The notes beneath the pieces are model-generated. The model saw nothing but the letters and a program-made list of their open reading frames with translations. It did no database searches and had not been told where the DNA came from. This document shows positions 16,721-62,700 of a DNA stretch of 64,000 bases, piece by piece; positions within the stretch are counted from its first letter, which is position 1; the number at the start of each line of letters is the position of its first letter. The DNA lies in sequence record PQ416618.1. One strand, given 5' to 3'. The position numbers and the translations under genes are program-made. Source of the DNA: Escherichia phage vB_VIPECOMC06.

Positions 16721-16744
16721 CAAAAATGGGAGACCGAAGTCTCC
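16720..16744 (-). terminator. intrinsic terminator after gene 35
   Basis: GGGAGACTTCGGTCTCCC (read on - strand) followed by ATTTTT; sits just upstream of the gp36 late promoter. Confidence 0.75.
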
Positions 16745-16750
16745 CTAAAT

Positions 16751-17878
16751 TTATTCTGATGCTTCTTTAAATTCTTGTCCAAATACCTTACCAGTATCAG
16801 TTGAAGATTGAGTAGGTAATGTCATTATGTCTGTGGCACTTAAAGATTCTGAAACATAATTTACACGAATACCATTTATACCAAACTCAGCAGGTTTTGA
16901 AACGCTTCCATTATATGATACTTCAGTGAATATAACGTTTCTTAATCCACCTTGCCCGACTGGAGCTGTACGATAACAATAAATCGTGAACCCGTCAGCA
17001 CCAGCAGGAATTTCTATGTAGTCTTCATATATCTTCCATTCACCTGCAGCCCCATCAAAGTTTATATCCTTAAATGAAATAGGTGAAGTAGAAGGAGATT
17101 TAAAGAAACGAATAGAAAGTCGTGTCGTCCCTTGTGCTAACAAATCAGCATCGGCCATTAGTTGGAATTTCATATAAAGGAAATCTCCAGGCTTCAATTT
17201 ATACCCAGCGAGAGGTGTAATAAGGGACGTTGTAGGCATCCTTTTAATTTCATTATTAGTACCTCCAACAGCAGATAAAAATGTGTCTGTCGATTCGTAC
17301 GTACGACTAGGGAAGCCGGTAGCACCAATATCATCGATCGTGTCGTACACAACATCAAGTGGTGTACTATAGTCGGTTGAAGTTTTCTTATTACTATACT
17401 TAATATGTTCTAGTGCTATAGCATTCTTACCAGAAATATAAAATGCAGAATAAGAAATGTCCACTATATTTAAAACTTGTTGAGCTAATGGAATAACAGA
17501 ACTCCCAGCTTTAGTAAACCATGCAAGAACTTCAGGTGGAAAGTTCGTTTTAGCGTTAGTAACAAGAGCAAATATAAAATTTGAAGCATATGTGTCCATG
17601 AAAGTAACAAATGCACTTGACGTGGCGTCGTTTTCAGTAGAGAAATTATATGACTTAGATTCAACTACTGCACCTGTTGTAGGATTTATTACACGAACGT
17701 TTAATCCAACGGAAAAAACCTGGGACCCAAGTGGATTATCTTGGAACTTAATATAAGCAGGAGATGTTGATAGCGGACAAGAGCCCGCTATACTTAATTT
17801 AAATCGTACTGAATTGCTTTCCGATAAAAATGGCGTTTGGACATATCCTTGTCCAAACTTAGCCATAAATTTTTCCAT
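16751..17878 (-). CDS. 35: gp35 long tail fibre hinge connector
   Basis: 375 aa, position between gp34 and gp36. Confidence 0.85.
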   Translation of the reverse strand: MEKFMAKFGQGYVQTPFLSESNSVRFKLSIAGSCPLSTSPAYIKFQDNPLGSQVFSVGLNVRVINPTTGAVVESKSYNFSTENDATSSAFVTFMDTYASNFIFALVTNAKTNFPPEVLAWFTKAGSSVIPLAQQVLNIVDISYSAFYISGKNAIALEHIKYSNKKTSTDYSTPLDVVYDTIDDIGATGFPSRTYESTDTFLSAVGGTNNEIKRMPTTSLITPLAGYKLKPGDFLYMKFQLMADADLLAQGTTRLSIRFFKSPSTSPISFKDINFDGAAGEWKIYEDYIEIPAGADGFTIYCYRTAPVGQGGLRNVIFTEVSYNGSVSKPAEFGINGIRVNYVSESLSATDIMTLPTQSSTDTGKVFGQEFKEASE

Positions 17879-17886
17879 AATACCTC

Positions 17887-20800
17887 TTATTCAACCCATT
17901 CAAATTTAACAGATTTATTCACAGGGTCTGGAATAATGCGGACATTACCAATCCTTAAGAAATCACGAATAGTAAGATTCCCCATTGTAGCATTATCAGA
18001 TGGTAAAGCGCCAATATCAGAAGGTTGAGGAGGGTTTCCACCATCAAATACCTGAACAAAACTCGACCAAGAATTTTTAGTTTTCTGCCATGTACGTGTC
18101 CAACGGGTTGTACGTGCTTCTGGAGTTGTTGGATAAGTAATCCAATCTTGGTAAAGCGAATCAAGTGTGTTACCAAACTGAGTCAATGTACCAGGAGATT
18201 TAACTTCTTCGCCACGTTCTAAGTATGGAAGTCCAGTCACTTCATTAGTTTTTTCAACCATTTTAAAATAACCTGGGAACTGGTTATAAGTGGCTGAATC
18301 GTTAATATCGATTGACCAGAATCCTACAGTATCAGATGTTGGTGCACGTGTATATAAATCAGATGTTTTAGTACCTTGAGAACGAATTCTCGAGTTAACC
18401 GTTAAACCACCTGAATTTATAGTAGCACCTTTAGCAATGATTAAGCTTTCACCAATCGTTACTTGACCAGATGTATTGTTAATAGCTAAAGGACGTAATC
18501 CATTAAATCCACCAGTCTGATCACCTGATGCAGTAAGCATAAAATAGGTATTAACAGCATCATTACGAATAAAGAATCCGTAATTACCACTAATAGCTCT
18601 AAAAGCATTCGATGATTTGCTGATGAATTCACCATTAGCAGTAACTGAACTACCAAATGTTGCAACGCCGTTCGCGTTCAAAGAACCTGAAGCGTTGACA
18701 TTTATCGGCATCACAGTACCATTGATACTAAACGTTATATTCCCAGCTTTATTGCGTTGAGAATAAAAGTGATTAGACGTTTCATCACCAACTTCAAATA
18801 CAGTAGAACGTGTTGTATCTGAACCGCCACCAAACTGATTTCCCCATACACGGATGCTCATTGACTGTGCTGGGTTAGTTCCAGTTTGAGGTCCTTTTTC
18901 AAAAATCAGACGAGTTGCTGTTCCAGCGTTAGAAATAGTTAATGTACTATTTGCCGAAACTGAACCACCAAACGTAGCAGTACTAGATGATACAAGAGGG
19001 GCACTCAGATTCGTTTGTTGGGTTAATGTTAGTGAACCATTAACCGTCTGTGCAATGTCCCTACGAATGAACTGAGATGAATCTAGGCCATCCAATAAAT
19101 TCGTGTCAGCAGCTTTTGCTTTTAATGGCAAGTAATTTGCTAATACACGGTTTAATTCATATGGTGATACTGCATAGCTATTTTTCTCATATAGCTCTAA
19201 GTTCTGTGTAGAACCGACTGTATCATTACCAACGAATGTAATTGAACCGGATGAAGTTTTAACGAATCCACGAATTGCTGTAGTAGCAGCCCATGTTGGT
19301 TCGTTCTGGACAATCCATTTTAAATTCTTAGGAGATACAGCAGTGTTCGCTGACGTTCCAGTCACAGTTTCAGTCTGGGTTGCAACCTTGATTACACCTT
19401 CAGACGTTTCAGTGGACTTAGTCCCTAAAAGCTTTTTAGGAGTAATAAGAACATCATCTAAAGTTCCTGCATTAGATTCTGCCTGGGTCGCTACGCGAAG
19501 TGTACCACGTTGTGTTTCATTTGCTTTAGAAATATCAAGAGTATAATGGTTCCACAAGGTTCCTTCTTCAATAAGTCCGGAATCAGAATTAACACTGGTA
19601 CGGTCAGAAGAATCAAAATGAGTTTTAATTTTCAGTGGAGTCGAGATACGAGTATCATCAGTTCCAGTATCAAATTCAACTTGCGTAGCAATTTCGGCTA
19701 TGCCGGATAATCCTTCCGTCGCTCTCCTATCATTTAACGTCTTAGGCGTTACTGCACGTGTATAATCAGTCCCAGCATTAGTTTCTGCTTGCGTAGCAAT
19801 TTCAATTAAACCAATACGTCCATCAGTAGAAGTTTTCTTATGTAGTGTTTCAGGAGTTACTACAGCATGAGAGTATCCAGACTGAGATTGTCCAGCAATT
19901 ACTTCACTATCAATAGCTAAAATTACTGCACCTTGTTGAGCATACGTTGCTTTATATTGGTCAAGGGCTTTAGGAGAAATAGTTAAATTATTTACGGTTT
20001 TATTATAAACGTTAGTGCCTGCGGCCCCACGAGTTTCGGCAGGAGTAGCAGAAGTAGTCGATACATATTTAACTATACCAGACAGCGTTTCAGAGCCCTG
20101 ACGTGCCTGTAATTTCTTAGGCGTAATAATCGTTGTGTCATCAAGACCAGCATCGGTTTCAGTCTGAGTAGCAATTTCAGCAAGACCGCGACGAGTTTCA
20201 GTTGCTGTACGCTCATTTAGTTTTTTAGGCGTAACAATAGTATCGTCCACAAATGATGCTGTGGAGTTCTGGTTAACTTGTGCTGTTGTAGCAATTTTAG
20301 CGATACCACGTCGAGCTTCAGTTGCTGTACGATTTGCCAACGTTTCAGGAGTAATAGCAACTTCTTTAGCCGGAGTATTCTCTAAATCAACATTTGCTTG
20401 CGCTTGAGTAGCAAGAGCAATAACACCTAAACGAGCTCGTGTAGCATCAGATCCAGCATCAACACGTTCTACCGTAGGGACATTCTGTTGCACAACCCAA
20501 TAATGAGTGTCAGAATCAGTGTCTTCGATATACGCTAATTCTAATACAGGAACATATGAAGTAGTGCCATTGAATTCTAGTTCAGTAACAGAGACCCATT
20601 GAGCATCAGGTGGATATTCAGAACGTTTAGGGAACTGAAGTAATGCGACAGAAGAAGCAATTGTATCACCTTCGGCAGCTTTAATTTTTACTGTTTGGCC
20701 TTTACGCATGTAGTTCATTGAAATTTTAACAGTGTCACCACTCAAAATTCCAGTAGGCAGCGTAAGATTAATAGTTCCGGTTGTAGCGTTATTTGTGCCA

Positions 20801-21762: not shown

Positions 21763-21792
21763 TCGTTTTTCCTTTATTGTTTCAATAATACT

Positions 21793-23060: not shown

Positions 23061-23376
23061 TATTAAACCGGTTGATGAGGCCGGTTTATCTGAACAAGAA
23101 TTAGCGGTAAAACACGATAAAGATGATATCGCTAAATTGCTTGACCGACAAGAAAACGGATTCATTATCGAATCCATGGTTGAACAATTTGGTATGTCTT
23201 ATTTAGAAGCAACAACTGCTTTCTTGGAAGAAAATTCTATTCCAGAAACACAATTTGCTAAATTTATTCCTACAGGAATTGTTGAAAAAATTACAAGCGA
23301 AGCAATTGATGAAAACATGCTTCGCCCATCAGTTGCTCGTGGTGAAAAAACTAATACGTTAGATTTCTTATTATGA
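23038..23376 (+). CDS. 33: late transcription co-activator gp33
   Basis: 112 aa; MTQFSL.DI.PVDE.GLSE.EL...LLDRQENGFIIE.MVE.FGMSYLEATTAFLEENSIPETQFAKFIP matches T4 gp33. Confidence 0.93.
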   Translation: MTQFSLSDIKPVDEAGLSEQELAVKHDKDDIAKLLDRQENGFIIESMVEQFGMSYLEATTAFLEENSIPETQFAKFIPTGIVEKITSEAIDENMLRPSVARGEKTNTLDFLL

Positions 23377-24056
23377 AATACGTTGTGTATAAAACTACCA
23401 ATAAAATAAATGGTAAAATTTATATAGGCGTACACAAAAAACATAAAGAGAAAGATTGGTATATTGGGTCTGGCCGCGCTATATTAGCGGCCAAAGCTAA
23501 ATACGGACTAAAAAATTTTTATACTGAAGTTCTTTATGAATATGATAATGACAAGGACGCCTATAAAAAAGAAGCAGAATTGGTTAATGAAGATTTTGTT
23601 TTGCGAACTGATACTTATAACCTGGTTCCAGGTGGTAAAGGTGGCCCTGGTAAAAAACAAAGTGATGAAGCTAAAAGGGCTATTTCACTTTCTAAAATAG
23701 GGAAACCTAGATCTGAAGAGACTAAGGCTAAAGTATCTAAAACCAGATTAGAAAGAAAAATACCATCACCTAATAAGGGTAAGAAACTATCTGAAGCTCA
23801 TAAATTAGCTTTGAGTAAAGTCCGAAAAGGGCGAAAAACGAATAAGCCGATGCCTGATTCAACCAAAGAAGCTCTTAGAATAGCAAATTCAAAGCCGCAT
23901 TCTAAAGAAAGAACTATTAAAAAACAAAAACCTATAATTATTGATGGTATAAAATACTCATCATGTACAGAAGTTTCGGATGTTTTTAATATTTCTGCAT
24001 CTCTAGTTACGTATAGACTTAAATCTTCAAAATGGCCTGGATGGAACTATGATTAA
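23373..24056 (+). CDS. GIY-YIG family homing-endonuclease-like protein (Seg-like), free-standing
   Basis: 227 aa; N-terminal YKTTNKINGKIYIGV (YIG element) plus a Lys/Arg-rich C-terminal DNA-binding-like region; ATGA overlap with gp33 stop. Confidence 0.65.
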   Translation: MKYVVYKTTNKINGKIYIGVHKKHKEKDWYIGSGRAILAAKAKYGLKNFYTEVLYEYDNDKDAYKKEAELVNEDFVLRTDTYNLVPGGKGGPGKKQSDEAKRAISLSKIGKPRSEETKAKVSKTRLERKIPSPNKGKKLSEAHKLALSKVRKGRKTNKPMPDSTKEALRIANSKPHSKERTIKKQKPIIIDGIKYSSCTEVSDVFNISASLVTYRLKSSKWPGWNYD

Positions 24057-25725: not shown

Positions 25726-25747
25726 GGGAGACTTCGGTCTCCCTTTT
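25726..25747 (+). terminator. intrinsic terminator after gene 32
   Basis: GGGAGACTTCGGTCTCCC followed by TTTTG. Confidence 0.85.
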
Positions 25748-25774: not shown

Positions 25775-25803
25775 GTTTACTTTTCCTTTAAACATGATAC
25801 TAT
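25775..25803 (+). promoter_or_regulatory. T4-type early promoter
   Basis: GTTTACttttcctttaaacatgaTACTAT; near-identical to the motA promoter. Confidence 0.6.
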
Positions 25804-25832
25804 AGACTTATCAACAACATGAGGAAATCAAA

Positions 25833-26219: not shown

Positions 26220-26258
26220 TTTACAACAAGATAGGGCTATGTTATAGTAGCCCTATCA
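26219..26258 (+). promoter_or_regulatory. T4-type early promoter with palindrome around -10
   Basis: GTTTACaacaaGATAGGGCTAtgtTATAGTAGCCCTATC. Confidence 0.6.
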
Positions 26259-28232: not shown

Positions 28233-28319
28233 CGCTTCAGTTTAAAAGTGTATAATAAATTAACGGGATAAATACTATCCCGTTTGGAGTAATGTCTATC
28301 AACCTATACTGAGGAATAT

Positions 28320-30627: not shown

Positions 30628-31806
30628 ATGAGTACAGTTTTTAACACACAACAAGTCGATGTTTTGAATGAGCCGATGTTCTTTGGTTCTGGTCTTGGTA
30701 TTGCGCGTTATGATATTCAACGCCATAAAGTTTTTGAAGATTTGACCGAAAAACAATTGTCATTTTTCTGGCGCCCCGAAGAGGTAAACTTGATGTTGGA
30801 CTCTGCGCAGTTCAATAAGCTTCCTCAGTTCCAACAGGACATCTTTACAAACAACCTTAAGTATCAATCATTATTAGATTCTATCCAAGGCAGAGCCCCA
30901 TCTGCGGTACTTATGGCACTGATTTCTGACCCTTCATTAGATACATGGGTTGCAACATGGACATTCAGTGAAACTATTCACTCTCGTTCGTATACTCATA
31001 TTATGCGAAATCTTTATACAGACCCATCTAAGGTATTTGATGAAATTGTATTAGACGAAGCAATCATGAAACGAGCTGAATCAATAGGTAAATATTACGA
31101 TGATGTTCTAGTTAAAACACGTGAATGGGAAAATGCTAAAGAAATTTTTAAATGTTTTTCCGAAAATGAATATGATTTGGATGCATATTCAAATAGTCTT
31201 ATGCATGTGGAAGAATGTAAACGTGCATTAATGAAGTCTCTTTATCTCTGCTTACACGTTATTAACGCCTTAGAAGCTATTCGTTTTTATGTATCTTTTG
31301 CATGTACTTTCAACTTCCATAAGAACATGGAAATCATGGAAGGTAATGCAAAGATTATGAAGTTCATCGCTCGTGACGAACAACTCCACCTTAAAGGCAC
31401 TCAGTACATTATCCGTCAACTTCAATCTGGTACTGATGGTGATGAGTGGGTTCAAATTGCTAAAGAATGTGAACAAGACGCAGTTGACATTTTTATGGAA
31501 GTAAATAGACAAGAGAAGGAATGGGCTGCACACCTCTTTAAAGACGGTACATGCCCGGGTATCAATACGCAGAGTATGTGTGCTTTTGTTGATTACTTGA
31601 CTGTGTCTCGTATGAAACAGTGCGGTTTGCCATGCCCAATAACTGATGCTCCGACCAAGCATCCGTATCCTTGGATTCGTGAATATCTGAACTCTGATTT
31701 AGTTCAATCAGCTCCTCAGGAAGTTGAAATCAGTTCTTATCTTGTCGCACAAATTGATAATGATGTAGACCAAAATGTAATCAATTCATACAAAAAATAT
31801 TTCTAA
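30628..31806 (+). CDS. nrdB: aerobic ribonucleotide reductase small subunit (uninterrupted, no intron)
   Basis: ATG at 30628 (MSTVFNTQQVDVLNEPMFFG...); continuous 392-aa ORF with R2 di-iron ligand helices. Confidence 0.93.
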   Translation: MSTVFNTQQVDVLNEPMFFGSGLGIARYDIQRHKVFEDLTEKQLSFFWRPEEVNLMLDSAQFNKLPQFQQDIFTNNLKYQSLLDSIQGRAPSAVLMALISDPSLDTWVATWTFSETIHSRSYTHIMRNLYTDPSKVFDEIVLDEAIMKRAESIGKYYDDVLVKTREWENAKEIFKCFSENEYDLDAYSNSLMHVEECKRALMKSLYLCLHVINALEAIRFYVSFACTFNFHKNMEIMEGNAKIMKFIARDEQLHLKGTQYIIRQLQSGTDGDEWVQIAKECEQDAVDIFMEVNRQEKEWAAHLFKDGTCPGINTQSMCAFVDYLTVSRMKQCGLPCPITDAPTKHPYPWIREYLNSDLVQSAPQEVEISSYLVAQIDNDVDQNVINSYKKYF

Positions 31807-31810
31807 GGAC

Positions 31811-31830
31811 GGGACTTCGGTCCCACTTTA
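31811..31830 (+). terminator. putative terminator after nrdB
   Basis: GGGACTTCGGTCCC hairpin followed by a U-containing tail. Confidence 0.6.
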
Positions 31831-31832
31831 TT

Positions 31833-32243
31833 ATGAAAGATATTGCCGCCGAATATTCCTTTATTAAATATACAGAATTGGAGCTATTAGAAGATGCAAC
31901 AATTAAAACAGTTGATGTCCCTAATAAGAAAAATGTCATATACGCTATTGCTATAGATGACGAACTTGTGTATATTGGTAAAACCAAGAATTTAAAGAAA
32001 CGCATTAACTATTATCGAACAGCCATAAATCGAAAAGACCAGACTTCAGATTCAAGAAAATCTCTTATGATTTTGGATGCCTTAATGCAAGGCAAAAAGG
32101 TTGAATTCTGGGCCCGCCAATGTTTTGACCTTTCAGTCACCAACGAACTTGGTTCAATGACCATCGCAACAATGGACCTTGAAGAACCGCTTTTTATCAA
32201 AAAGTTCAACCCGCCTTGGAATATCCAACATAAGAAAAAGTAG
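31833..32243 (+). CDS. denA: endonuclease II (GIY-YIG family)
   Basis: 136 aa; MK.IA.EYSFIKYTELEL...NVIYAIAI.DELVYIGKTKNL.KRINYYRTAINRKD...PPWNIQHKKK matches T4 DenA. Confidence 0.92.
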   Translation: MKDIAAEYSFIKYTELELLEDATIKTVDVPNKKNVIYAIAIDDELVYIGKTKNLKKRINYYRTAINRKDQTSDSRKSLMILDALMQGKKVEFWARQCFDLSVTNELGSMTIATMDLEEPLFIKKFNPPWNIQHKKK

Positions 32244-34833: not shown

Positions 34834-34868
34834 TTTACAAACTCTCGGGAGCAGAGTATAATGCTCCT
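34833..34868 (+). promoter_or_regulatory. early promoter with palindrome flanking TATAAT
   Basis: GTTTACaaactctcgGGAGCAgagTATAATGCTCC. Confidence 0.6.
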
Positions 34869-40182: not shown

Positions 40183-40205
40183 GGGAGACTTCGGTCTCCC
40201 TTTTG
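40183..40205 (+). terminator. intrinsic terminator after the rIII-region small gene
   Basis: GGGAGACTTCGGTCTCCC followed by TTTTG. Confidence 0.85.
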
Positions 40206-40236: not shown

Positions 40237-40266
40237 TGTTTACTCTCCTGTAGGATGTGTTACTAT
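40237..40266 (+). promoter_or_regulatory. T4-type early promoter
   Basis: GTTTACtctcctgtaggatgtgtTACTAT. Confidence 0.55.
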
Positions 40267-40753: not shown

Positions 40754-41119
40754 ATGAACTACATCAACTTCGAACGTAAATATGTTTCTAACGGTATTGC
40801 TGGTTCTATTGATACGATTTGCTTATGGAAACATAATAACGGTTCAGTATGTGAAATTGAGCAGTATATGACTCCTAATTACGTTTATATGCGATTTGAA
40901 AATGGCATCACGGTTTCAATCACGATGGAAGGTTCTACTTTTAAAATCGCTTTAGATGATGATTTCCGTCAACGTGATTTAGGTACCCATCCTTGCTGGA
41001 ACGGCGTTAATCGTAAGCTTCTGGTTAAAACCTGGATTCGTCACATCCTGAGCAACCGAGCTAAACCTGAACATCTCGAAGCAATCTTTGATGTAGTTCT
41101 GAATGAATTCGATATCTAA
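40754..41119 (+). CDS. hypothetical early protein
   Basis: 121-aa ORF after an early promoter, GGAGAA SD. Confidence 0.55.
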   Translation: MNYINFERKYVSNGIAGSIDTICLWKHNNGSVCEIEQYMTPNYVYMRFENGITVSITMEGSTFKIALDDDFRQRDLGTHPCWNGVNRKLLVKTWIRHILSNRAKPEHLEAIFDVVLNEFDI

Positions 41120-41129
41120 TCTTAAAAAT

Positions 41130-41148
41130 GGAGGCTTCGGCCTCCTTT
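41130..41148 (+). terminator. intrinsic terminator
   Basis: GGAGGCTTCGGCCTCC hairpin followed by TTT. Confidence 0.7.
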
Positions 41149-41160: not shown

Positions 41161-41448
41161 ATGTTTATGACCACTTATTTCGATACTCGTAAAAATTTCT
41201 GTGAAGTTGTTTTCTCTAAAGCTGGTAAAGACGTTCCTGCCGACAAACAACCTACTCGTGAATCTATTAAGGCTTATGCTGATGTTGTATGCCCGGTAGA
41301 ATTCCGTACTGTTAATGGACGTGATACCCTGGCAATCACTAAGCTCAACCGTGACATCAATATCGACCCAAGTGTCGCCCGTGAAGTCAATACCTCTGAC
41401 ATCTATGGTGGTAATGTTAAATCACACGGCTTTCAGATGAGGTTCTAA
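41161..41448 (+). CDS. hypothetical protein
   Basis: ATG at 41161 downstream of the terminator hairpin; the track start at 41128 lies inside the hairpin. Confidence 0.45.
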   Translation: MFMTTYFDTRKNFCEVVFSKAGKDVPADKQPTRESIKAYADVVCPVEFRTVNGRDTLAITKLNRDINIDPSVAREVNTSDIYGGNVKSHGFQMRF

Positions 41449-41642
41449 TGCAACTATTCTTATCACAAACAGTCCAGTTAAAAGGCATAGGTATTCCTGG
41501 AATGATTTCAAAGGTTCTACCTGCTTTTAAATTAGGTAATGTTACTATTAAAAAAGCCTACGCCGTCTTATGGGTCGATGGAACTGAAGACGTTCGCATG
41601 AGTTCTGAATTAGAAGTTATCAAAAACCTTAAAAGACTATGA
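41448..41642 (+). CDS. hypothetical small protein
   Basis: 64-aa ORF. Confidence 0.45.
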   Translation: MQLFLSQTVQLKGIGIPGMISKVLPAFKLGNVTIKKAYAVLWVDGTEDVRMSSELEVIKNLKRL

Positions 41643-42091
41643 TTGAAATCAGAAGCAATTTTCCATGGCCGTCATGTGCATTAAGTAACTTTGCTAAATG
41701 GCCTTTTGTTATGGATGGTATTCAATTCGGAGGTCTTGAAGGATTTCTCCAAGGATGTAAGGTGAAAAATATTGAACAACAAAAACGTATATTTGGGTTG
41801 TCCGGATTGGCTGCACAGCAAGCTGGAAGGTCTTATGCAAGAGCTCAGGACCGTGGGACTCTCTTCTGGTTAGGAGTTCCATTTTCAAGATACTCCGAAG
41901 CGTGGAAAGAATTATACACAAATGCATATTTTGAAGCCGCGATCCAAAACAAGGGGTTTCGTGATGCCTTACAAGCCTCTAAAGGAAAAATTTTGAAGCA
42001 CAGCATGGCTAGCGGTCTAACAAAAGATGATACAATACTAACCGAAGCTGAATTTATTGATGTGTTAAACCTATTAAGAGACTCTTTATGA
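41639..42091 (+). CDS. NADAR/YbiA-like (DUF1768 family) domain protein
   Basis: 150 aa; LSNFAKWPFVMDGIQFGGLEGFLQGCKV resembles the YbiA core FSNFA.WP..VDG...SEHYFQAQKF; C-terminal region follows the same family pattern. Confidence 0.5.
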   Translation: MIEIRSNFPWPSCALSNFAKWPFVMDGIQFGGLEGFLQGCKVKNIEQQKRIFGLSGLAAQQAGRSYARAQDRGTLFWLGVPFSRYSEAWKELYTNAYFEAAIQNKGFRDALQASKGKILKHSMASGLTKDDTILTEAEFIDVLNLLRDSL

Positions 42092-44681: not shown

Positions 44682-44869
44682 TGAAAGCTTATTTAGAAAC
44701 AGTTGTTGTAGCTAAGAAGGATGGTGGAGATGTTTCCACCTCTTGCTCTCAGATTATATTAGATTTTCCTAATGAAAATTCGTATCGGGTTTTCGTAGAT
44801 AACGTTAATGGGTACGAAAAAGGCCCCAATTTTGAAGTTTATCGCACTTTGCTCCCGATTGTAGATTAA
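44681..44869 (+). CDS. hypothetical small protein
   Basis: ATG overlapping gp30 stop (TAATG); 62 aa; followed by a terminator. Confidence 0.45.
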   Translation: MKAYLETVVVAKKDGGDVSTSCSQIILDFPNENSYRVFVDNVNGYEKGPNFEVYRTLLPIVD

Positions 44870-44888
44870 GAGCCTTCGGGCTCTTTTT
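44868..44888 (+). terminator. intrinsic terminator after gene 30 region
   Basis: AGAGCCTTCGGGCTCT hairpin followed by TTTTT. Confidence 0.8.
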
Positions 44889-47364: not shown

Positions 47365-47373
47365 ACCCCTAAA

Positions 47374-47395
47374 GGGAGACGTTGTCTCCCTTTTT
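47374..47395 (+). terminator. terminator between convergent transcripts (alt region + / gp54 -)
   Basis: GGGAGACGTTGTCTCCC hairpin followed by TTTTT on + strand. Confidence 0.75.
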
Positions 47396-55929: not shown

Positions 55930-55954
55930 TTTTATCTCCTAAGGGCCGAAGCCC

Positions 55955-57469
55955 TTATAAATTAATTGTTTTCATTACATAGTTAAATTTCTCATCAGCG
56001 TAACGTTGGATACGATCAATACCGTGTTTTAACAAGTAATTAAGATGAGTATACTTCTTTTTAGTATTTAATGATTTAGGTTTTACACCTGCGTCATCGA
56101 TGAGATCCCAAACTGTAGCAACAGCTTTAGAACCATGCTTACGAAGCACACGACCTACGGTTTGAAGTACGATAATTTTTGATTTAACACCATGGGCAAA
56201 AATAACATGATGAAGATTCTTGACTGAAATACCAGTAGAGAATACTCCATATGATGCGACAATAATAATGCCTTTACCATTTTCTGCCATGACTTTAAGC
56301 GCGTTACGTGTTTCAGTATCAACTTCACCTGATACGTAATAAACTTTTTCGTATCCAAGCTCTTTAATAGCTTCAAATATTTCTTTACCGTGTGTAACGT
56401 GTTTAAACATTACAAAGGCGTTCTCGTCTTTCTTAGCCAATTTGACTGAAAGTTGAGCAATCCACTTTGTACGACGTTTTAGCCCGGTAATAATTTTAAC
56501 TTCTTCTTGGTATGTTTTACCTTTTAATTTAACAGTGAATTCGTCCGGATAACGAAGGAAAATACTATTAATCTTAAGCTCAGTTACTTGTCCGTCTTCC
56601 ATTAATTTAGACGTGCTAACAGGACGGAAGATTTCGCCGAACATACCTACATACTGCATTACATTGGCTTTTCCGTCTCTTAATGAGCCAGATAAACCGA
56701 ATTTAAACATGCAATTATTTAATCCTGAGATGATTGAAGAAATACTTTTGCCTGTTGCTAAGTGGCATTCATCGTTCATCATCATACCGAATTGAGAGAA
56801 CCATTCTTTAGGCTGCTTAACTACCGTTTGCCATGTGCCAACAATAATTGGAGCGTCGTTTTTAGATTTGTCTGCTTTATCAGCACCACCGCCAATTTTC
56901 TTAATCATCGAATGACTAAACAAGCGGTAATCAACAAAATCATTAGCCATCTGGGTTGTCAATGCTGTTGTAGGGACGATAATGAGAATTTTACCTTCAT
57001 AGTTCTCTAGATAATATCGAGCTAAAAGTGCTTGGATTAGTGATTTACCTGCTGATGTCGGAAGGTTTAAAATTCGACGACGATTAACTAGTCCTTCGTA
57101 TACTGCATCTTTTTGATACCAATGTGGTTCGATTTTAGAGTTGCCCGAATAAATTTCTTGTTTAGAAAGCCATTCGTCAAAATCTTCCCTGGTAAGGTCT
57201 TCGGTTTCAAAGATTTTAGGGTCAATCCATACAGAATAACTCATATTGTTACAGAACTTTTTTATTTGTCCTACAAGTCCATATGGTAACAAACGGTTGT
57301 AATCTAAAAGTCGAATTCTACCATCCCATTGCCCATAGCGATATTTTGGGTTAAATTTATACCCGTCAGCTTCAAAGCTAAAAAAGTCACGAAGTTCGTA
57401 AAACGTACTTTCGTCGCATTCAATGCGCACGTGACTAAAATCATAAAAATGTACTTTAATGTCAGTCAT
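55955..57469 (-). CDS. uvsW: UvsW DNA/RNA helicase (SF2)
   Basis: 504 aa; Walker A LPTSAGKS, DEAH-like box MMMNDECH, helicase C-terminal motifs. Confidence 0.92.
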   Translation of the reverse strand: MTDIKVHFYDFSHVRIECDESTFYELRDFFSFEADGYKFNPKYRYGQWDGRIRLLDYNRLLPYGLVGQIKKFCNNMSYSVWIDPKIFETEDLTREDFDEWLSKQEIYSGNSKIEPHWYQKDAVYEGLVNRRRILNLPTSAGKSLIQALLARYYLENYEGKILIIVPTTALTTQMANDFVDYRLFSHSMIKKIGGGADKADKSKNDAPIIVGTWQTVVKQPKEWFSQFGMMMNDECHLATGKSISSIISGLNNCMFKFGLSGSLRDGKANVMQYVGMFGEIFRPVSTSKLMEDGQVTELKINSIFLRYPDEFTVKLKGKTYQEEVKIITGLKRRTKWIAQLSVKLAKKDENAFVMFKHVTHGKEIFEAIKELGYEKVYYVSGEVDTETRNALKVMAENGKGIIIVASYGVFSTGISVKNLHHVIFAHGVKSKIIVLQTVGRVLRKHGSKAVATVWDLIDDAGVKPKSLNTKKKYTHLNYLLKHGIDRIQRYADEKFNYVMKTINL

Positions 57470-57519: not shown

Positions 57520-58188
57520 ATGATCGATAAAGACTATATTGAAGAGTTACGTGCTCTTTCTGATAAAAAGGAAGCCAAAGCTAAACTGTTTGAATATGCG
57601 GAACAATTTGGCATTAGTGTTAAGAAAACAAAATCATTTGATAATATTGTTATTGATATCGAAGAAGCTCTTAACGCACTGGCTGATGAACCATTACCTG
57701 AAACTGATGGATTATCTATCACCGATTTAATTACTGCCGCAGATGATGTGGACGGTGTTAATTTCACCAACGAAGAAGTTAAAGAAGAAGCTATTCTGTT
57801 GTTTGATTCTCCAACAGAACAAGTTGAAGTATTAGAAGTTGTCGAACAAGAAAAAGAATTCGACCATGATAAATTCAAAGAAGCAATTACTCAGGTTGTT
57901 GAATCTGAAAAAGAGCCTGAGGCAGAGGTAAATAAAGAAGTAAAATTTGTTCTGCCTGAAAATTTTAGTCCTACACTCATTAAATTAGGCAAAAGCCCAG
58001 GATATGTTACTGTTCCTTGGTGGATTTATCAATGGATAGCCGAAACCCCAGATTGGAAATCTCGCCCAACTAGTTTTGTGCATGCTTCTGCTCACCAAAC
58101 ATTATTTAGCTTAATTTATTATATTAATCGCGATGGATCAGTTCTAATTCGTGAATCTCGTAATTCTTCTTTCGTAACATTAAAATAA
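57520..58188 (+). CDS. acidic protein at the inh (prohead protease inhibitor) position
   Basis: 222 aa, acidic; located immediately upstream of hoc; identity with T4 Inh not verified. Confidence 0.4.
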   Translation: MIDKDYIEELRALSDKKEAKAKLFEYAEQFGISVKKTKSFDNIVIDIEEALNALADEPLPETDGLSITDLITAADDVDGVNFTNEEVKEEAILLFDSPTEQVEVLEVVEQEKEFDHDKFKEAITQVVESEKEPEAEVNKEVKFVLPENFSPTLIKLGKSPGYVTVPWWIYQWIAETPDWKSRPTSFVHASAHQTLFSLIYYINRDGSVLIRESRNSSFVTLK

Positions 58189-58197
58189 GGATAACTT

Positions 58198-59328
58198 ATG
58201 GCTTTTACAGTTGATATAACTCCTAAAACACCTACTGGAGTTATAGATGAGACTAAGCAGTTTACTGCTACTCCCAGTGGTGAAACTGGAGGTGGAACTA
58301 TTACCTATGCATGGAGTGTAGACGATGCTCCTCAAGTAGGATCGGCAGAAACTTTTGATTATGTGTTAAAAGGACCTGCTGGAACAAAAACAATTAAAGT
58401 TGTTGCAACAAATACTATTCCTGACTCTGAAGCTGAAACAGCTGAAATTAGTACAACTATTACAGTTCAAAACAAAACACAGACAACTACGTTGGCAGTA
58501 ACTCCTAATAGTCCTCCAGCAGGAGTAATTGGAACCCCAGTTCAATTTACTGCTGCCTTAGCTTCTCAACCGGCTGGAGCGTCTGCTACGTATCAGTGGT
58601 ATGTAGATGATTCACAGGTTGGTGGAGAAACTAACTCTACATTTAGCTATACTCCAACTACAAGTGGAGTTAAAAAAATCAAGTGTGTAGCTCAAGTAAC
58701 CGCAACAGATTATGATGCACTGAGCGTTACTTCTAATGAAGTATCATTGACAGTTAATAAGAAGACAATGAATCCACAGGTTACATTGACTCCTCCTTCT
58801 ATTAACGTTCAGCAAGATGCTTCGGCTACATTTACTGCTAATGTAACTGATGCTCCTGAAGAAGCGCAAATTGCGTATTCATGGAAGAAAGATTCTTCTC
58901 CTGTAGAAGGGTCAACTAACGTATACACCGTTGATACATCATCTATTGGAAGTCAAACTATTGAAGTTACTGCAACTATTACTGCAACTGATTACGATAG
59001 CAAAACTATTACAGCAGAAGGTCAAGTTCAAGTGACTGATAAAGTTGCTCCAGAACCAGAAGGTGAATTACCTTATGTTCATCCTCTTCCACATCGTACT
59101 TCAGCTTATATCTGGTGCGGTTGGTGGGTTATGGATGAAATCCAAAAAATGACTGAAGAAGGTAAAGATTGGAAAACTGACGACCCGGATAGTAAATACT
59201 ACCTGCATCGTTACACTCTTCAGAAGATGTTGAAAGACTATCCGGAAGTTGATGTTCAAGAATCACGTAATGGATACATCATTCATAAAACTGCTTTGGA
59301 AACTGGTATCATCTATACATATCCATAA
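58198..59328 (+). CDS. hoc: Hoc highly immunogenic outer capsid protein (Ig-like domains)
   Basis: 376 aa; M.FTVDITPKTPTGVIDETKQFTATPSG.TGGGTITYAWSVD... and C-terminal ...YVHPLPHR.SAYIWCGWWVMDEIQKMTEEGKDWKTDDPDSKYYLHRYTLQKM.KDYPEVDVQESRNGYIIHKTALETGIIYTYP match T4 Hoc. Confidence 0.95.
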   Translation: MAFTVDITPKTPTGVIDETKQFTATPSGETGGGTITYAWSVDDAPQVGSAETFDYVLKGPAGTKTIKVVATNTIPDSEAETAEISTTITVQNKTQTTTLAVTPNSPPAGVIGTPVQFTAALASQPAGASATYQWYVDDSQVGGETNSTFSYTPTTSGVKKIKCVAQVTATDYDALSVTSNEVSLTVNKKTMNPQVTLTPPSINVQQDASATFTANVTDAPEEAQIAYSWKKDSSPVEGSTNVYTVDTSSIGSQTIEVTATITATDYDSKTITAEGQVQVTDKVAPEPEGELPYVHPLPHRTSAYIWCGWWVMDEIQKMTEEGKDWKTDDPDSKYYLHRYTLQKMLKDYPEVDVQESRNGYIIHKTALETGIIYTYP

Positions 59329-59332
59329 TCGT

Positions 59333-59360
59333 AAGGGGCTTCGGCCCCTTTCTTCGTTTT
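59333..59360 (+). terminator. intrinsic terminator after hoc
   Basis: AAGGGGCTTCGGCCCCTT hairpin followed by T-rich stretch. Confidence 0.8.
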
Positions 59361-59427
59361 TAAAGCATACAAAACACATCTTGAGATTGATGTATAATGG
59401 CACAAACCAAATGATACGGGATTGATT

Positions 59428-59622
59428 ATGAGAGTTGAAGTTGAAGTTTATACATTACATGAGGCGGGATTTTCATTCGTAGAAATTGCTCAAAAAATCG
59501 GTTTACAACCTAAAGAAGTTGGATTACTATGGACTAAAGCCGAGACAGCTCGGTCAAAGTTTAAAGCAAAAGAAAAAGTTGTATACCGTAAACGTTTGAT
59601 TAACAAAAAGGTGAAGAAATGA
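59428..59622 (+). CDS. small basic protein with HTH-like segment
   Basis: ATG at 59428 (the track ORF starts at an upstream TTG); FSFVEIAQKIGLQPKEV resembles a helix-turn-helix. Confidence 0.45.
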   Translation: MRVEVEVYTLHEAGFSFVEIAQKIGLQPKEVGLLWTKAETARSKFKAKEKVVYRKRLINKKVKK

Positions 59623-59870
59623 GTTTTGCACAGGAATTAAGAGAAAGGGCGCTGGCCACTAAAGCCAATTTGTTGAAAGATTTTATTACTAACTTCTCTG
59701 TGATGGCAGAGAAAGCCGCTGACAAAGGCCAGACACAATTTACATACTATCCGTCAAAGAATGATTTAACTATCACCGAGCAAATCGGGGAATGGTTCCG
59801 TGATAATGGCTTTCAGTACAAAATTAATCATGACCAGCGTGATGGGCACTGGATAGAAATCAAGTTCTAG
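59619..59870 (+). CDS. hypothetical small protein
   Basis: 83-aa ORF, ATGA overlap with upstream stop. Confidence 0.5.
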   Translation: MSFAQELRERALATKANLLKDFITNFSVMAEKAADKGQTQFTYYPSKNDLTITEQIGEWFRDNGFQYKINHDQRDGHWIEIKF

Positions 59871-59871
59871 T

Positions 59872-59900
59872 ATGCTTTACATTTTTTGATGGTATAATGA
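59872..59900 (+). promoter_or_regulatory. putative middle promoter upstream of rnlB
   Basis: aTGCTTtAca + about 12 nt + TATAAT. Confidence 0.45.
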
Positions 59901-59989
59901 ATCTAGGTTCTATCCATTCAAATTAAACATTGGGCCAGAGATAGAGTCTCTGCTAATTATTTTGATATTATTATTTATAATGGTGATTT

Positions 59990-60988
59990 ATGTTTAAGAA
60001 ATACAGCAGTCTTGAAAACCACTACAACTCTAAGTTTATTGAAAAACTCTACACTAATGGTTTGACTACTGGTGTTTGGGTAGCACGTGAGAAAATCCAT
60101 GGGACCAACTTCTCGTTAATAATTGAACGTGACAACGTCACATGCGCCAAGCGCACAGGCCCTATTCTTCCAGCAGAAGATTTTTACGGCTATGAAATCG
60201 TACTCAAGAAGTATGATAAAGCTATTAAAGCCGTTCAGGAATTAATGCACGCAGATCGAGCAGTATCATATCAAGTATTCGGTGAATTCGCTGGTGGTGG
60301 AATCCAGAAAGGTGTTGACTACGGTGAAAAAGATTTTTATGTGTTCGATATCATTATCAATACAGAAAGTGGTGATAATACGTATTTGACCGATTACGAA
60401 ATGCAAGATTTCTGTAATGAATTCGGTTTTAAAATGGCACCAATGCTTGGTCGTGGCACATTTGATTCTCTTATCATGATTCCAAACGACCTTGATTCCG
60501 TCTTAGCCGCTTATAATGCTACTGCGTCAGAAGACCTTGTAGAAGCAAATAATTGTGTATTTGATGCTAATGTTATTGGCGATAATACAGCAGAAGGTTA
60601 TGTTCTGAAGCCTTGTTTCCCTAAATGGCTGCCAAACGGTACTCGTGTAGCTATTAAGTGCAAGAACTCTAAATTCAGTGAAAAGAAAAAGTCTGATAAG
60701 CCTATTAAAACTCAGGTTCCATTAACCGAAATTGACAAAAACTTGCTTGATGTTCTAGCTTGTTATGTTACATTAAACCGTGTTAATAATGTGATTTCTA
60801 AGATTGGGACTGTAACGCCAAAAGATTTTGGCAAAGTGATGGGATTAACTGTTCAAGATATTCTGGAAGAAACTTCTCGTGAAGGTATTGTATTAACATC
60901 ATCTGATAATCCGAATCTTGTTAAGAAAGAATTAGTCCGAATGGTGCAAGATGTTCTGCGTCCTGCATGGATTGAATTAGTATCATAA
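59990..60988 (+). CDS. rnlB: RNA ligase 2
   Basis: 332 aa; [60 protein letters not shown] (ligase lysine KIHG) matches T4 Rnl2. Confidence 0.95.
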
Positions 60989-60990
60989 CG

Positions 60991-61016
60991 AAAAAGGGAC
61001 CTTACGGTCCCTTTTT
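60991..61016. terminator. bidirectional terminator between convergent rnlB (+) and gene 24 (-)
   Basis: AAAAAGGGACCTTACGGTCCCTTTTT: hairpin flanked by A-run and T-run. Confidence 0.8.
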
Positions 61017-61017
61017 A

Positions 61018-62298
61018 TTAATCAATAATAATTTTAGGCAATTTAACACCGAGTAAAACAGACAAGTCTGAACGTCCTGCCATTTTATCCATGTCCCCAC
61101 CATCAATTATTCTCGCTTCTTTTTCATCTTTTGCTACTGTGTAAGGATTTGCTGATAAAGCATATCTAACCAATAATCCGATAGATGGTTGCAAGCTTTC
61201 TGGATCAACTACGACTTTAAATGCACCGACATGTTCCGGGTCATCTAAATCTACTCCTTCAGTGTATGGAGCATAAAAGACGGACCCTACAATTTCTTTT
61301 TCGCCGATATTTTCTACAACACCCACAATAACATAATCTAACGGACTGTTGGTATCGCAGTAAAGAGGTAATCCATTTGCCAAGAATCCATAAGCATTTT
61401 GTGAAAGATACTTGTCATCTTCTGGCTTATGTTTTAACCAACCGGAAGCAGCAAGAATAGCAGCTGCACGAGCTGAGGCTACACAAAACGTTGCAGTATA
61501 AGTTGTCTCTTTTTGAATGTGTGATACCATTTCACACACCATTCGATATAACGAACGACCTGCTTCTGGAGCGGATGCATAGCTCAAGTCAATAAATCCG
61601 GTGTCAGTAATTCCAGTAACTTTATAACGTTTCGATACAGTAATTAAAGACTGAAGAATATCTTTATTAATTTCATCAGCCATTTCAGTGGCAAGCAAAT
61701 CTTCTAAGAAGTTAGGGGCATCAAATCCATTCGCTTCCAAATCTTGCGCTAATTCAACCGTGAGGCCAGTTTTAAGTTTACGAGATTTGACTGAAGTTTG
61801 CCATTTATTAATCTGGAATCTTGCATCAGCAATTTCGCTACCAGAACTTTCAAATTTGCTTGTTACCGCTGCATCTGAAAATAACCGTACCTTTAAATGA
61901 ACGACTGCAATCTGAAGAGCTAATTCTAGATCACTTTCTTGAATATCTGCAAATGGTGTATCTTCTAACACTTTATAGACGATATTATTATATTTGAAAA
62001 AATCGCCTTTATTTAGTGTGTCTTTTGATTCTTCTGTGAGCTCAGTAATTTTTTCTCGGTCTACATATCCAACTTCGCCTGCATAAGTAGCACCAGTTTT
62101 AAATGTGAATTCGTTATCTGGGTTAAGATATTTGATACCATAAAAAGCAGCAACAGGTTGATTAGTTCTTTGTGTTGCTACAATGTCAGAATATATTAAT
62201 TTAGTCGTAGCGCGAGTCAAAGCAACGAGATTTGGGCGACCGATTGAGTTGCTAGTAGACGTTGTAGATTCACGCAATAATTTTTGGATTTTACTCAT
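61018..62298 (-). CDS. 24: gp24 capsid vertex protein
   Basis: 426 aa; capsid-fold protein paralogous to gp23, late promoter TATAAATA about 28 nt upstream. Confidence 0.9.
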   Translation of the reverse strand: MSKIQKLLRESTTSTSNSIGRPNLVALTRATTKLIYSDIVATQRTNQPVAAFYGIKYLNPDNEFTFKTGATYAGEVGYVDREKITELTEESKDTLNKGDFFKYNNIVYKVLEDTPFADIQESDLELALQIAVVHLKVRLFSDAAVTSKFESSGSEIADARFQINKWQTSVKSRKLKTGLTVELAQDLEANGFDAPNFLEDLLATEMADEINKDILQSLITVSKRYKVTGITDTGFIDLSYASAPEAGRSLYRMVCEMVSHIQKETTYTATFCVASARAAAILAASGWLKHKPEDDKYLSQNAYGFLANGLPLYCDTNSPLDYVIVGVVENIGEKEIVGSVFYAPYTEGVDLDDPEHVGAFKVVVDPESLQPSIGLLVRYALSANPYTVAKDEKEARIIDGGDMDKMAGRSDLSVLLGVKLPKIIID

Positions 62299-62325
62299 TG
62301 CATTTTTTCCTTATGTGATATAGAT

Positions 62326-62333
62326 TATTTATA
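62326..62333 (-). promoter_or_regulatory. late promoter for gene 24
   Basis: TATAAATA on - strand about 28 nt upstream of the gp24 ATG. Confidence 0.7.
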
Positions 62334-62339
62334 AAGATT

Positions 62340-62370
62340 GTTTACAACGTATTTGGTATGTGATACTATA
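62340..62370 (+). promoter_or_regulatory. T4-type early promoter
   Basis: GTTTACaacgtatttggtatgtgaTACTAT. Confidence 0.55.
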
Positions 62371-62399
62371 GACTTATCAACTACAGAGGAGTAAACAAA

Positions 62400-62669
62400 A
62401 TGACTAAAGCACGTTTCTTACGAGATACTTTAAAAGTTCTGGAAGCTGAAGCAGTTAAGTTAGTAGAAAAATATGGTGCAAAAGTTAATGGTAATGCCTT
62501 CAACAAAGTATGGATGAAAGTTGATTCTGAAGCTCGAGCTAAAGGTTATTGGGCCACTGATAAACTTGCATCATTCAAAAACAAAGATGGTTCTCCAGCA
62601 TATGTCCAAGAAGGTATGCCTAATTGGCAAAATATTTTGAAAACTTACATCGAAATTGCACAGAAATAA
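62400..62669 (+). CDS. hypothetical protein
   Basis: 89-aa ORF between gp24 and gp23 after an early promoter; GAGGAG SD. Confidence 0.5.
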   Translation: MTKARFLRDTLKVLEAEAVKLVEKYGAKVNGNAFNKVWMKVDSEARAKGYWATDKLASFKNKDGSPAYVQEGMPNWQNILKTYIEIAQK

Positions 62670-62674
62670 AACCA

Positions 62675-62700
62675 AAAATGGGAGACCGAAGTCTCCCAAA
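62675..62700 (-). terminator. terminator downstream of gene 23 (- strand)
   Basis: GGGAGACTTCGGTCTCCC on - strand followed by ATTTTTGGTTTT. Confidence 0.75.

What the first reader, a model, noticed from the sequence alone, without database searches (positions are those of the whole stretch)
16727..62697. The same 18-nt hairpin (GGGAGACUUCGGUCUCCC) is reused as terminator at four distant sites
Identical copies occur at 25726-25743 and 40183-40200 on the + strand and, as reverse complement, at 16727-16744 and 62680-62697 on the - strand. Each is oriented so the local transcript reads GGGAGACUUCGGUCUCCC with a UUCG tetraloop. Several other terminators are close variants (GGGGACUUCGGUCCCC, GGGAGCUUCGGCUCCC, GGGACUUCGGUCCC). 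This is a dispersed repeat family that could also act as RNA-stability elements or recombination hotspots.
Basis: seen in the sequence. Interest (0 to 1): 0.4.

Follow-up and report, generated by a model that had tools for sequence, protein, structure and literature searches.

The report
Recurrent UUCG-loop terminators in T4-like phage
The four identical 18-base hairpins are real, but they are the classic, extra-stable "CUUCGG" stem-loops that T4-type phages place just after genes to stop transcription and protect the RNA end. This feature has been known since 1988, so the finding is ordinary.

Summary
GGGAGACTTCGGTCTCCC occurs exactly four times, where shuffles give none; one coordinate is off by one base. 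The window is a T4-like phage of the genus Mosigvirus, about 95% identical to Shigella phage SHSML-52-1. Each copy lies 5-24 nt after a stop codon (genes 35, 32, 30.9-like and 23). Each reads UUCG on the sense strand and is followed by a U-run. Nine more C(UUCG)G hairpins occur in the window, and all 13 are sense-oriented. The relative's whole genome has 22, all sense. At the sites after genes 32, 23 and 30.9, nearly every T4-like phage examined has a hairpin whose stem sequence differs but stays fully paired. The same 18-mer recurs in at least 120 unrelated viral contigs and at least 120 bacterial contigs, with a T-run after it in 82-88%. These are therefore intrinsic terminators and 3'-end stabilisers of the CUUCGG class (Tuerk 1988), not a mobile repeat. 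Two of the "variants" are probably not terminators: one is the gene 38 split ribosome-binding site, and a similar one precedes denA. One mildly interesting extra is that several lineages carry the same terminator allele at non-homologous sites more often than chance (P≈0.006). This hints at gene conversion, in line with the published PeSL cassettes.

The parts
16728..16745 (-). Copy 1 of GGGAGAC-UUCG-GUCUCCC. It lies 5 nt after the gene 35 stop, with tail AUUUUUGU.
   Evidence: (dG -14.4, z -3.6). It is conserved in SHSML-52-1. T4 has a UUCG hairpin with a different stem at the same junction.
16713..16720 (-). T4-type late promoter box TATAAATA, 7 nt after copy 1, serving gene 36.
   Evidence: T4 has the same terminator-then-TATAAATA arrangement.
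25726..25743 (+). Copy 2. It lies 6 nt after the gene 32 stop, with tail UUUUGAGU.
   Evidence: A hairpin is present at this site in 29 of 30 relatives, with varied stems.
25776..25804 (+). Early sigma-70-like promoter (TTTACT, 17 nt, TACTAT) 32 nt after copy 2. Together they form a terminator/promoter cassette.
   Evidence: T4 has the same layout after gene 32.
40183..40200 (+). Copy 3. It lies 5 nt after the stop of a 59-aa ORF (phrog_1427, at the position of T4 gene 30.9). The stem extends to 8 bp and the tail is UUUGUGCG.
   Evidence: (dG -19.2, z -5.0). A hairpin is present in all 25 relatives, mostly with other stems.
40239..40266 (+). Early sigma-70-like promoter (TTTACT, 16 nt, TACTAT) 38 nt after copy 3, upstream of the gp30.8 homologue.
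62680..62697 (-). Copy 4. It lies 24 nt after the gene 23 (major capsid) stop, with an 8-bp stem and tail UUUUUGGUUUU. It is convergent with a small + strand ORF.
   Evidence: (dG -16.1, z -4.1). A hairpin is present at this site in about 60 of 62 relatives.
47371..47393 (.). The same GGGAGAC/GUCUCCC stem with a GUU loop, flanked by AAA and TTT, between convergent genes (DUF5498 ORF on +, gene 54 on -). It is probably a bidirectional terminator.
   Evidence: (dG -14.2, z -3.8)
4869..4884 (+). Variant GGGGAC-UUCG-GUCCCC with UUUUUU, 5 nt after the rIIB stop. Terminator-like.
8732..8749 (+). Variant AGGGAGC-UUCG-GCUCCCU with UUUGUG, after gene 52 and followed by an early promoter (8775-8802). 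This cassette borders an indel relative to SHSML-52-1.
41130..41145 (+). Variant GGAGGC-UUCG-GCCUCC with a weak U-run. It shows a double compensatory change relative to SHSML-52-1 (GGGAGC/GCUCCC), and a replaced gene block starts 22 nt downstream.
44868..44885 (+). Variant AAGAGCC-UUCG-GGCUCUU with UUUGG. It overlaps the stop of the ORF upstream of alt.
59333..59350 (+). Variant AAGGGGC-UUCG-GCCCCUU with UCUUCGUUUUU, 4 nt after the hoc stop.
12852..12869 (-). AAGGGAC-UUCG-GUCCCUU between the Shine-Dalgarno GGAG and the AUG of gene 38 (7 nt). This is a split ribosome-binding site, not a terminator.
   Evidence: T4 homologue; review PMC3014915
31811..31824 (+). GGGAC-UUCG-GUCCC between the nrdB stop/AAGGA and the denA AUG (8 nt). 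Possibly a second split ribosome-binding site; the U-run is poor.
   Evidence: inference
55940..55957 (-). UAAGGGC-UUCG-GCCCUUA, which includes the uvsW stop and is followed directly by the GGAG of uvsW.1. It has no U-run, so it is not a terminator.
7208..7221 (+). GAGCC-UUCG-GGCUC inside a 46-codon ORF. This is the only UUCG hairpin within a coding sequence.
60991..61016 (.). AAAAAGGGACC-UUAC-GGUCCCUUUUU between convergent rnlB and gene 24. A bidirectional terminator without a UUCG loop, listed for comparison.
   Evidence: dG -16.6, z -4.8

Best explanation
The four identical 18-mers are Rho-independent (intrinsic) transcription terminators of a T4-like (Mosigvirus) phage, built on the C(UUCG)G tetraloop hairpin. 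As RNA polymerase passes the stop codon of genes 35, 32, 30.9-like or 23, the nascent RNA folds into a 7-8 bp, G-rich-5'/C-rich-3' stem capped by UUCG. The stem is followed by a short U-run, which destabilises the elongation complex and releases part or all of the transcripts. The hairpin left at the 3' end then shields the mRNA from 3'-5' exonucleases. Three of the four are followed by a fresh promoter (late TATAAATA, or an early sigma-70-like one), so they insulate neighbouring transcription units. The copies are identical mainly because the workable sequence space is small (GGG base, purine-rich 5' arm, C-G closing pair, UUCG loop) and this sequence is a widely recurring solution. Occasional gene conversion between terminators may add to the identity. 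The following are shown: sequence, position, orientation, structural conservation and recurrence elsewhere. The following are inferred: actual termination, its efficiency and RNA stabilisation.
For: The window is a T4-like phage. Each copy lies 5-24 nt after a stop codon, on the sense strand, with 5-6 T in the next 8 nt. The predicted hairpins have dG -13.6 to -19.2 kcal/mol. All 13 UUCG hairpins in the window are sense-oriented and 12 are intergenic. The bare hexamers CTTCGG and CCGAAG show no strand bias (13 vs 15), so the bias is specific to hairpins. In the complete SHSML-52-1 genome all 22 UUCG hairpins are sense-oriented (one was scored antisense only by my segment boundary). UUCG is by far the commonest tetraloop there, with 22 of 82 and the next at 5. 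At the orthologous sites after genes 32, 23 and 30.9, nearly every T4-like genome has a hairpin with a different but fully complementary stem and a stable tetraloop (UUCG > UACG > GCAA > GAAA). At the gene 23 site, 95% of cells are paired and 56 cells show a change on both sides, against 13.5 in shuffles. T4 itself has UUCG hairpins after genes 23 and 35 and the known CUAGA-loop terminator after gene 32. The identical 18-mer occurs in at least 120 unrelated viral contigs (GC 30-63%) and at least 120 bacterial contigs from many phyla. A T-run follows it in 88% and 82% in the UUCG reading, against 23-25% in the opposite reading. In the literature, CUUCGG hairpins are abundant in intergenic regions of T4 (Tuerk 1988, as cited in PMC8948821 and PMC4371310). 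T4 terminator stems that contain GGAG often carry UUCG loops (PMC1702504).
Against: No 3'-end data exist for this phage, and I found no T4 term-seq paper. The U-runs are short and interrupted (UUUUG..., AUUUUUG...), so termination may be partial. Genes 35 and 36 are likely also co-transcribed. Copy 2 in its 51-nt context has a z-score of only -1.7. The covariation count rests on hairpins picked by a hairpin finder, so its pairing percentage is partly circular. Sequence-space limits alone do not explain why tails are also shared between copies in some genomes.
Confidence: 0.85

Rival explanations
1. The copies are still terminators, but they are identical because they are copied from one another. 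Short-homology recombination or gene conversion between dispersed terminator or terminator/promoter cassettes homogenises them within a genome. The same cassettes act as break-and-join points for module shuffling, as proposed for PeSLs.
For: In several separate lineages the same hairpin allele sits at non-homologous sites of one genome: GGGAGAC (this window, 2974737508, 2974666281), AAGGAGCC, GGGACC, and GGGAACC with a CUAGU loop. There are 6 identical cross-site pairs among 26 distinct genome patterns, against 1.9 expected (permutation P=0.006). In the AAGGAGCC phages the identity runs 14 nt past the stem (ttgttgtttctgga), and in 2974737508 also 14 nt. The gene 23 terminator plus an antisense ORF is an insertion or replacement relative to RB69-like phages. 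An ORF absent from the window is flanked in SHSML-52-1 by two terminator/promoter cassettes. PeSL papers: PMC2839356, PMC4122927.
Against: In this window identity ends 5-7 nt beyond the hairpin and the flanks are unrelated. All four copies are at the same places in the 95%-identical relative, so there has been no recent movement. The permutation test ignores phylogeny. The same 18-mer arises in unrelated viruses and bacteria, so convergence clearly happens. Only copies 2 and 3 have the early promoter that defines a PeSL.
Confidence: 0.3
2. The hairpins do not stop transcription. They act only after it, as 3'-exonuclease barriers at processed ends, as RNase or protein recognition sites, or as folding nucleation sites within polycistronic mRNAs.
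For: Some UUCG hairpins in the window clearly have non-terminator roles or lack a U-run (12852, 31811, 55940). The U-runs of the four copies are modest. The literature assigns several different functions to CUUCGG hairpins.
Against: All four copies have a U-run directly after the stem. In other genomes the same 18-mer is followed by a T-run in 82-88% of cases. The UUCG loop is described as binding no protein and making no RNA contacts (PMC4371310). Three copies are followed by a new promoter, as expected at the end of a transcription unit.
Confidence: 0.1
3. The 18-mer is a DNA-level signal or a small mobile element, such as a cruciform, a recombination or packaging site, or a MITE- or REP-like repeat.
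For: It is a near-perfect DNA palindrome repeated four times.
Against: A DNA palindrome would work in either orientation, yet 13 of 13 hairpins here and 22 of 22 in the relative have the UUCG reading on the sense strand. There is no extended repeat, no terminal repeats and no target duplication, and presence does not vary against the closest relative. Stems change by compensatory substitutions at fixed positions, which points to selection on RNA pairing and not on DNA sequence.
Confidence: 0.03

Closest known systems
C(UUCG)G 'CUUCGG' hairpins of bacteriophage T4 mRNAs (Tuerk et al. 1988, PNAS 85:1364; known to me, and cited in PMC8948821 and PMC4371310)
   Same: It is a UUCG tetraloop closed by C-G on a short G/C-rich stem. 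The hairpins are mostly intergenic, abundant in a T4-type genome and sense-oriented. T4 has such hairpins at the same junctions: after genes 23 and 35, and before gene 38.
   Different: Only the stem sequence differs. T4 uses GGGAACC after gene 23, GGGACCC/GGGUUCCC after gene 35, and a CUAGA-loop hairpin after gene 32. This phage uses one stem at four sites.
Rho-independent (intrinsic) terminators of bacteria and phages
   Same: It has a G/C-rich hairpin with a G-rich 5' arm and a C-rich 3' arm, followed at once by a U-run just after a stop codon. The very same 18-mer with a T-run is found in many bacteria and viruses.
   Different: The U-runs are short (4-5 U and then G), and termination has not been measured.
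PeSLs, promoter-early stem-loop cassettes of T4-like phages (Arbiol 2010 PMC2839356; Comeau 2014 PMC4122927)
   Same: Copies 2 and 3, and the 8732 variant, are stem-loops followed within 25-40 nt by a strong early sigma-70-like promoter. One such cassette pair flanks an indel relative to SHSML-52-1.
   Different: Copies 1 and 4 follow late structural genes and have no early promoter. Identity between copies is about 23-25 nt, not about 100 nt. The four copies are not indel breakpoints relative to the closest relative.
T4 gene 38 (and gene 25) split ribosome-binding sites (review PMC3014915)
   Same: The variant at 12852-12869 sits between GGAG and the gene 38 AUG, exactly as in T4.
   Different: This applies to that variant, and possibly to 31811-31824, but not to the four identical copies.

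Membership tests
Intrinsic (Rho-independent) terminator | Stable G/C-rich RNA hairpin | tested here: met
   A 7-8 bp stem with 5 G-C pairs; dG -13.6 to -19.2 kcal/mol in 51-nt contexts
Intrinsic (Rho-independent) terminator | U-rich tract immediately 3' of the stem | tested here: met
   5-6 T in the 8 nt after each copy, though interrupted by G
Intrinsic (Rho-independent) terminator | Located downstream of a gene end, on the transcribed strand | tested here: met
   5-24 nt after the stops of genes 35, 32, 30.9-like and 23, all in sense orientation
Intrinsic (Rho-independent) terminator | Transcript 3' ends map to the U-tract, or termination occurs in vitro | not testable with these tools
   No RNA data for this phage, and no T4 3'-end mapping paper found
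T4-type C(UUCG)G hairpins (Tuerk 1988) | UUCG loop closed by a C-G pair | tested here: met
   All four copies and nine variants read C-UUCG-G
T4-type C(UUCG)G hairpins (Tuerk 1988) | Over-represented, mainly intergenic, in a T4-type phage genome | tested here: met
   13 observed against 0.07 in shuffles; 12 of 13 intergenic; 22 in the whole genome of the relative; host genome is Tevenvirinae
PeSL (promoter-early stem-loop cassette) | Stem-loop joined to a strong sigma-70-like early promoter | tested here: inconclusive
   Met for copies 2 and 3 (promoters at 25776-25804 and 40239-40266). Not met for copy 1 (late promoter) or copy 4 (no promoter)
PeSL (promoter-early stem-loop cassette) | Sequence conservation over about 100 bp between cassettes | tested here: not met
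   Identity between the four copies is 23-25 nt at most
PeSL (promoter-early stem-loop cassette) | Flank indels or replacements of ORFans between close relatives | tested here: inconclusive
   Not met for the four copies against SHSML-52-1. Met for the 8732 cassette and for the gene 23 site against RB69-like phages
Mobile short repeat (MITE/REP-like) | Repeat unit with its own ends and target duplication, variable in presence between close relatives | tested here: not met
   Flanks are unrelated and all four sites are conserved in the relative
Any curated RNA family (Rfam 15) | Match at or above the gathering score | tested here: not met
   No match in the 64-kb window. Terminator hairpins are not expected to match.

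The most novel reading that the evidence does not exclude
Terminator hairpins of T4-like phages evolve in concert. Short-tract gene conversion, driven by the phage's very active recombination system, spreads one terminator allele (hairpin plus about 14 nt of tail) to non-homologous gene ends within a genome. Each lineage thus ends up with its own 'house' terminator, and these same short identities serve as joints for module exchange.
Probability: 0.3. Interest if true: 0.35.

Novelty: already known. Interest (0 to 1): 0.12.

Why it matters
It matters little beyond annotation. The sites mark the ends of transcription units for genes 35, 32, 30.9-like and 23, and they separate terminators from look-alike translational hairpins (gene 38, and perhaps denA). 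The 18-mer with its U-run recurs in many unrelated genomes, so it is probably a compact and portable terminator that could serve as a synthetic part. The one open point is whether within-genome sharing of terminator alleles reflects gene conversion. That would extend the PeSL idea from early-gene cassettes to late-gene terminators.

Tried and rejected
- The Rfam scan of the window gave no match.
- Tuerk 1988 (PMC279771) and Miller 2003 (PMC150520) are not held, so they are cited through papers that quote them.
- Searches for T4 3'-end mapping found nothing usable.
- The gene 35 search in IMG/VR returned only two fragments, so the site 1 comparison rests on SHSML-52-1 and T4.
- I rejected the mobile-element reading because the flanks are unrelated and the positions are conserved.
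- I rejected the DNA-palindrome reading because of the strict sense orientation.
- I rejected a RegB target role for the GGAG in the stem, because such structured GGAGs are reported to be RegB-resistant.
- The sigma-70 promoter scan as a whole is not enriched over shuffles, so only promoters with the T4 early consensus next to hairpins were used.
Full report
**Observation.** GGGAGACTTCGGTCTCCC occurs exactly four times: at 16728-16745 (-), 25726-25743 (+), 40183-40200 (+) and 62680-62697 (-). Dinucleotide shuffles give none, and there are no further matches with up to three mismatches. The quoted variants are present. A fifth copy of the same stem with a GUU loop lies at 47371-47393.

**Source and gene context.** The window is a T4-like phage of the genus Mosigvirus, about 95% identical to Shigella phage SHSML-52-1. 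I transferred that genome's annotation by tblastn.
- Copy 1 lies 5 nt after the gene 35 stop and 7 nt before a late-promoter box, TATAAATA, that serves gene 36.
- Copy 2 lies 6 nt after the gene 32 stop. An early sigma-70-like promoter follows 32 nt later.
- Copy 3 lies 5 nt after the stop of a 59-codon ORF, upstream of the gp30.8 homologue. It is also followed by an early promoter.
- Copy 4 lies 24 nt after the gene 23 stop and faces a small convergent ORF.

Each copy reads UUCG on the sense strand and has 5-6 T in the next 8 nt. Predicted energies are -13.6 to -19.2 kcal/mol.

**Census of hairpins.** The window has 40 perfect hairpins with a stem of at least 5 bp and at least 4 G-C pairs. 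Of these, 22 are intergenic, and 12 of those carry a TTCG loop. One more TTCG hairpin lies inside a short ORF.
- All 13 read UUCG on the sense strand.
- Shuffles give 0.07 such hairpins on average.
- The bare hexamers CTTCGG and CCGAAG are equally common on the sense strand (13 vs 15), so the orientation bias belongs to the hairpins.
- In the assembled SHSML-52-1 genome (169,621 bp) there are 22 UUCG hairpins, all sense-oriented. One was scored antisense only because of my segment boundary.
- UUCG is by far the commonest tetraloop in that genome.
- The exact 18-mer occurs four times there, at the four orthologous sites.

This strand rule argues against any purely DNA-level role.

**Comparison with relatives.** I fetched the DNA downstream of genes 32 and 23 and of the 59-codon ORF from T4-like genomes in IMG/VR.
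- Nearly every genome has a strong hairpin a few bases after the stop codon.
- The stem sequence differs between genomes: GGGAGAC, AAGGAGCC, GGGACC, GGGAACC, GGGACUCC, AAAGGCAACC and others. It is always fully complementary.
- The loop is usually a stable tetraloop. At the gene 23 site, 31 of 62 loops are UUCG, 7 UACG, 6 GCAA and 3 GAAA.
- On a loop-anchored alignment of 27 distinct gene 23 hairpins, 95% of cells pair and 56 cells show changes on both sides, against 13.5 in shuffles. These hairpins were chosen by a hairpin finder, so the pairing percentage is partly built in. The real point is that a hairpin is found at all in almost every genome.
- T4 itself has AGGGAACC-UUCG after gene 23, a UUCG hairpin followed by TATAAATA after gene 35, and GGGGACC-CUAGA-GGUCCCC after gene 32.
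- Between the window and SHSML-52-1, the 41130 hairpin shows a double compensatory change.

**Occurrence elsewhere.** It is also present in at least 120 bacterial contigs from many phyla. In the UUCG reading it is followed by at least 5 T in 8 nt in 88% and 82% of cases. In the opposite reading the figures are 23% and 25%, and almost all of those sites have a T-run on both sides. This exact sequence is therefore a repeatedly reinvented terminator, not a family-specific element.

**Interpretation.** The four copies are intrinsic terminators and 3'-end protectors of the CUUCGG class. This class was first described in T4 (Tuerk 1988) and is cited as abundant in intergenic regions of T4. T4 terminator stems that contain GGAG and a UUCG loop have also been noted as resistant to RegB. 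Termination itself is inferred, because no 3'-end data exist. The U-runs are short, so partial read-through is likely.

**Variants that are not terminators.**
- 12852-12869 lies between the GGAG and the AUG of gene 38. This is the known split ribosome-binding site, in which the hairpin shortens the effective spacing.
- 31811-31824 sits in the same way between AAGGA and the denA AUG. This reading is my inference.
- 55940-55957 spans the uvsW stop, abuts the next Shine-Dalgarno sequence and has no U-run.

**Is it a repeat family?** In this window, identity between copies ends 5-7 nt beyond the hairpin. Copies 1 and 4 share CCCAUUUUUG, and copies 2 and 3 share CCCUUUUG. The flanks are unrelated, and the positions are fixed relative to the closest relative. 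Mobility is therefore rejected.

Across T4-like genomes, however, the same allele often sits at different sites of one genome. Different alleles do this in different lineages, and in some the identity runs 14 nt past the stem. On distinct genome patterns there are 6 shared cross-site pairs against 1.9 expected (P=0.006), without correction for phylogeny. Three further observations fit the same picture:
- The gene 23 terminator plus an antisense ORF is an insertion or replacement relative to RB69-like phages, and T4 has segD at that spot.
- A terminator/promoter cassette pair flanks an ORF that the window lacks.
- A replaced gene block begins 22 nt after the 41130 hairpin.

All of this fits the published PeSL model of cassette-mediated shuffling.

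**Verdict.** Novelty: already known. Interest is low.

Noticed in passing
window 8765-8850 (and SHSML-52-1 record 41053-41138 / 41374-41459, in L001): The early promoter, leader and first codons downstream of the 8732 hairpin align to two places in SHSML-52-1, where they flank a 216-nt ORF that the window lacks. This is a PeSL-type indel between repeated terminator/promoter cassettes.
   Followed up: partly
window 5710-5733, 6481-6502, 26230-26257, 28262-28284, 34848-34867: Inverted repeats that embed the -10 box of strong early-type promoters, for example GAGAGCA-GAGTATAA-TGCTCTC. They resemble the promoter-overlapping stem-loops described for PeSLs.
   Followed up: no
window 62299-62724 (hyp146 at 62400-62669, + strand): The spacer between genes 23 and 24 holds a hairpin plus an antisense 89-aa ORF (phrog_6003, unknown function), 384 nt in all. 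RB69-like phages have only about 45 nt there, with a different UUCG hairpin, and T4 has the homing endonuclease segD at the same spot. This looks like an insertion hotspot.
   Followed up: partly
window 31804-31835: The layout is the nrdB stop, AAGGA, a 14-nt UUCG hairpin, 8 nt and then the denA AUG. It looks like a second split ribosome-binding site of the gene 38 type.
   Followed up: no
window 41167-41645: This gene block is replaced relative to SHSML-52-1 (three ORFs, one only 58% identical). The replacement starts 22 nt after the 41130-41145 hairpin.
   Followed up: partly
window 13755-14087 (gene 37, - strand): This segment of the distal tail-fibre gene does not align to SHSML-52-1, and the whole protein is only 79% identical. 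It is probably a host-range region.
   Followed up: no
window 23373-24053: A homing-endonuclease ORF lies between genes 33 and 59, overlapping both neighbours. T4 has segG one gene further on, between genes 59 and 32.
   Followed up: no
loci L302, L319, L358, L361, L365, L376 (Gallionellaceae / Sideroxydans / Nitrosomonadales contigs): These bacterial contigs carry two copies of the same 18-mer within 1-4 kb, and this group is over-represented among the bacterial hits. It may have its own 'house' terminator.
   Followed up: no
IMG/VR contigs 2974573174, 2706796299, 2974556567 (loci L128, L131, L132, L219, L221, L260): The terminators after genes 32 and 23 are identical over 34 nt (AAGGAGCCTTCGGGCTCCTT + ttgttgtttctgga) while the flanks are unrelated. 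This is the clearest hint of terminator copying.
   Followed up: partly
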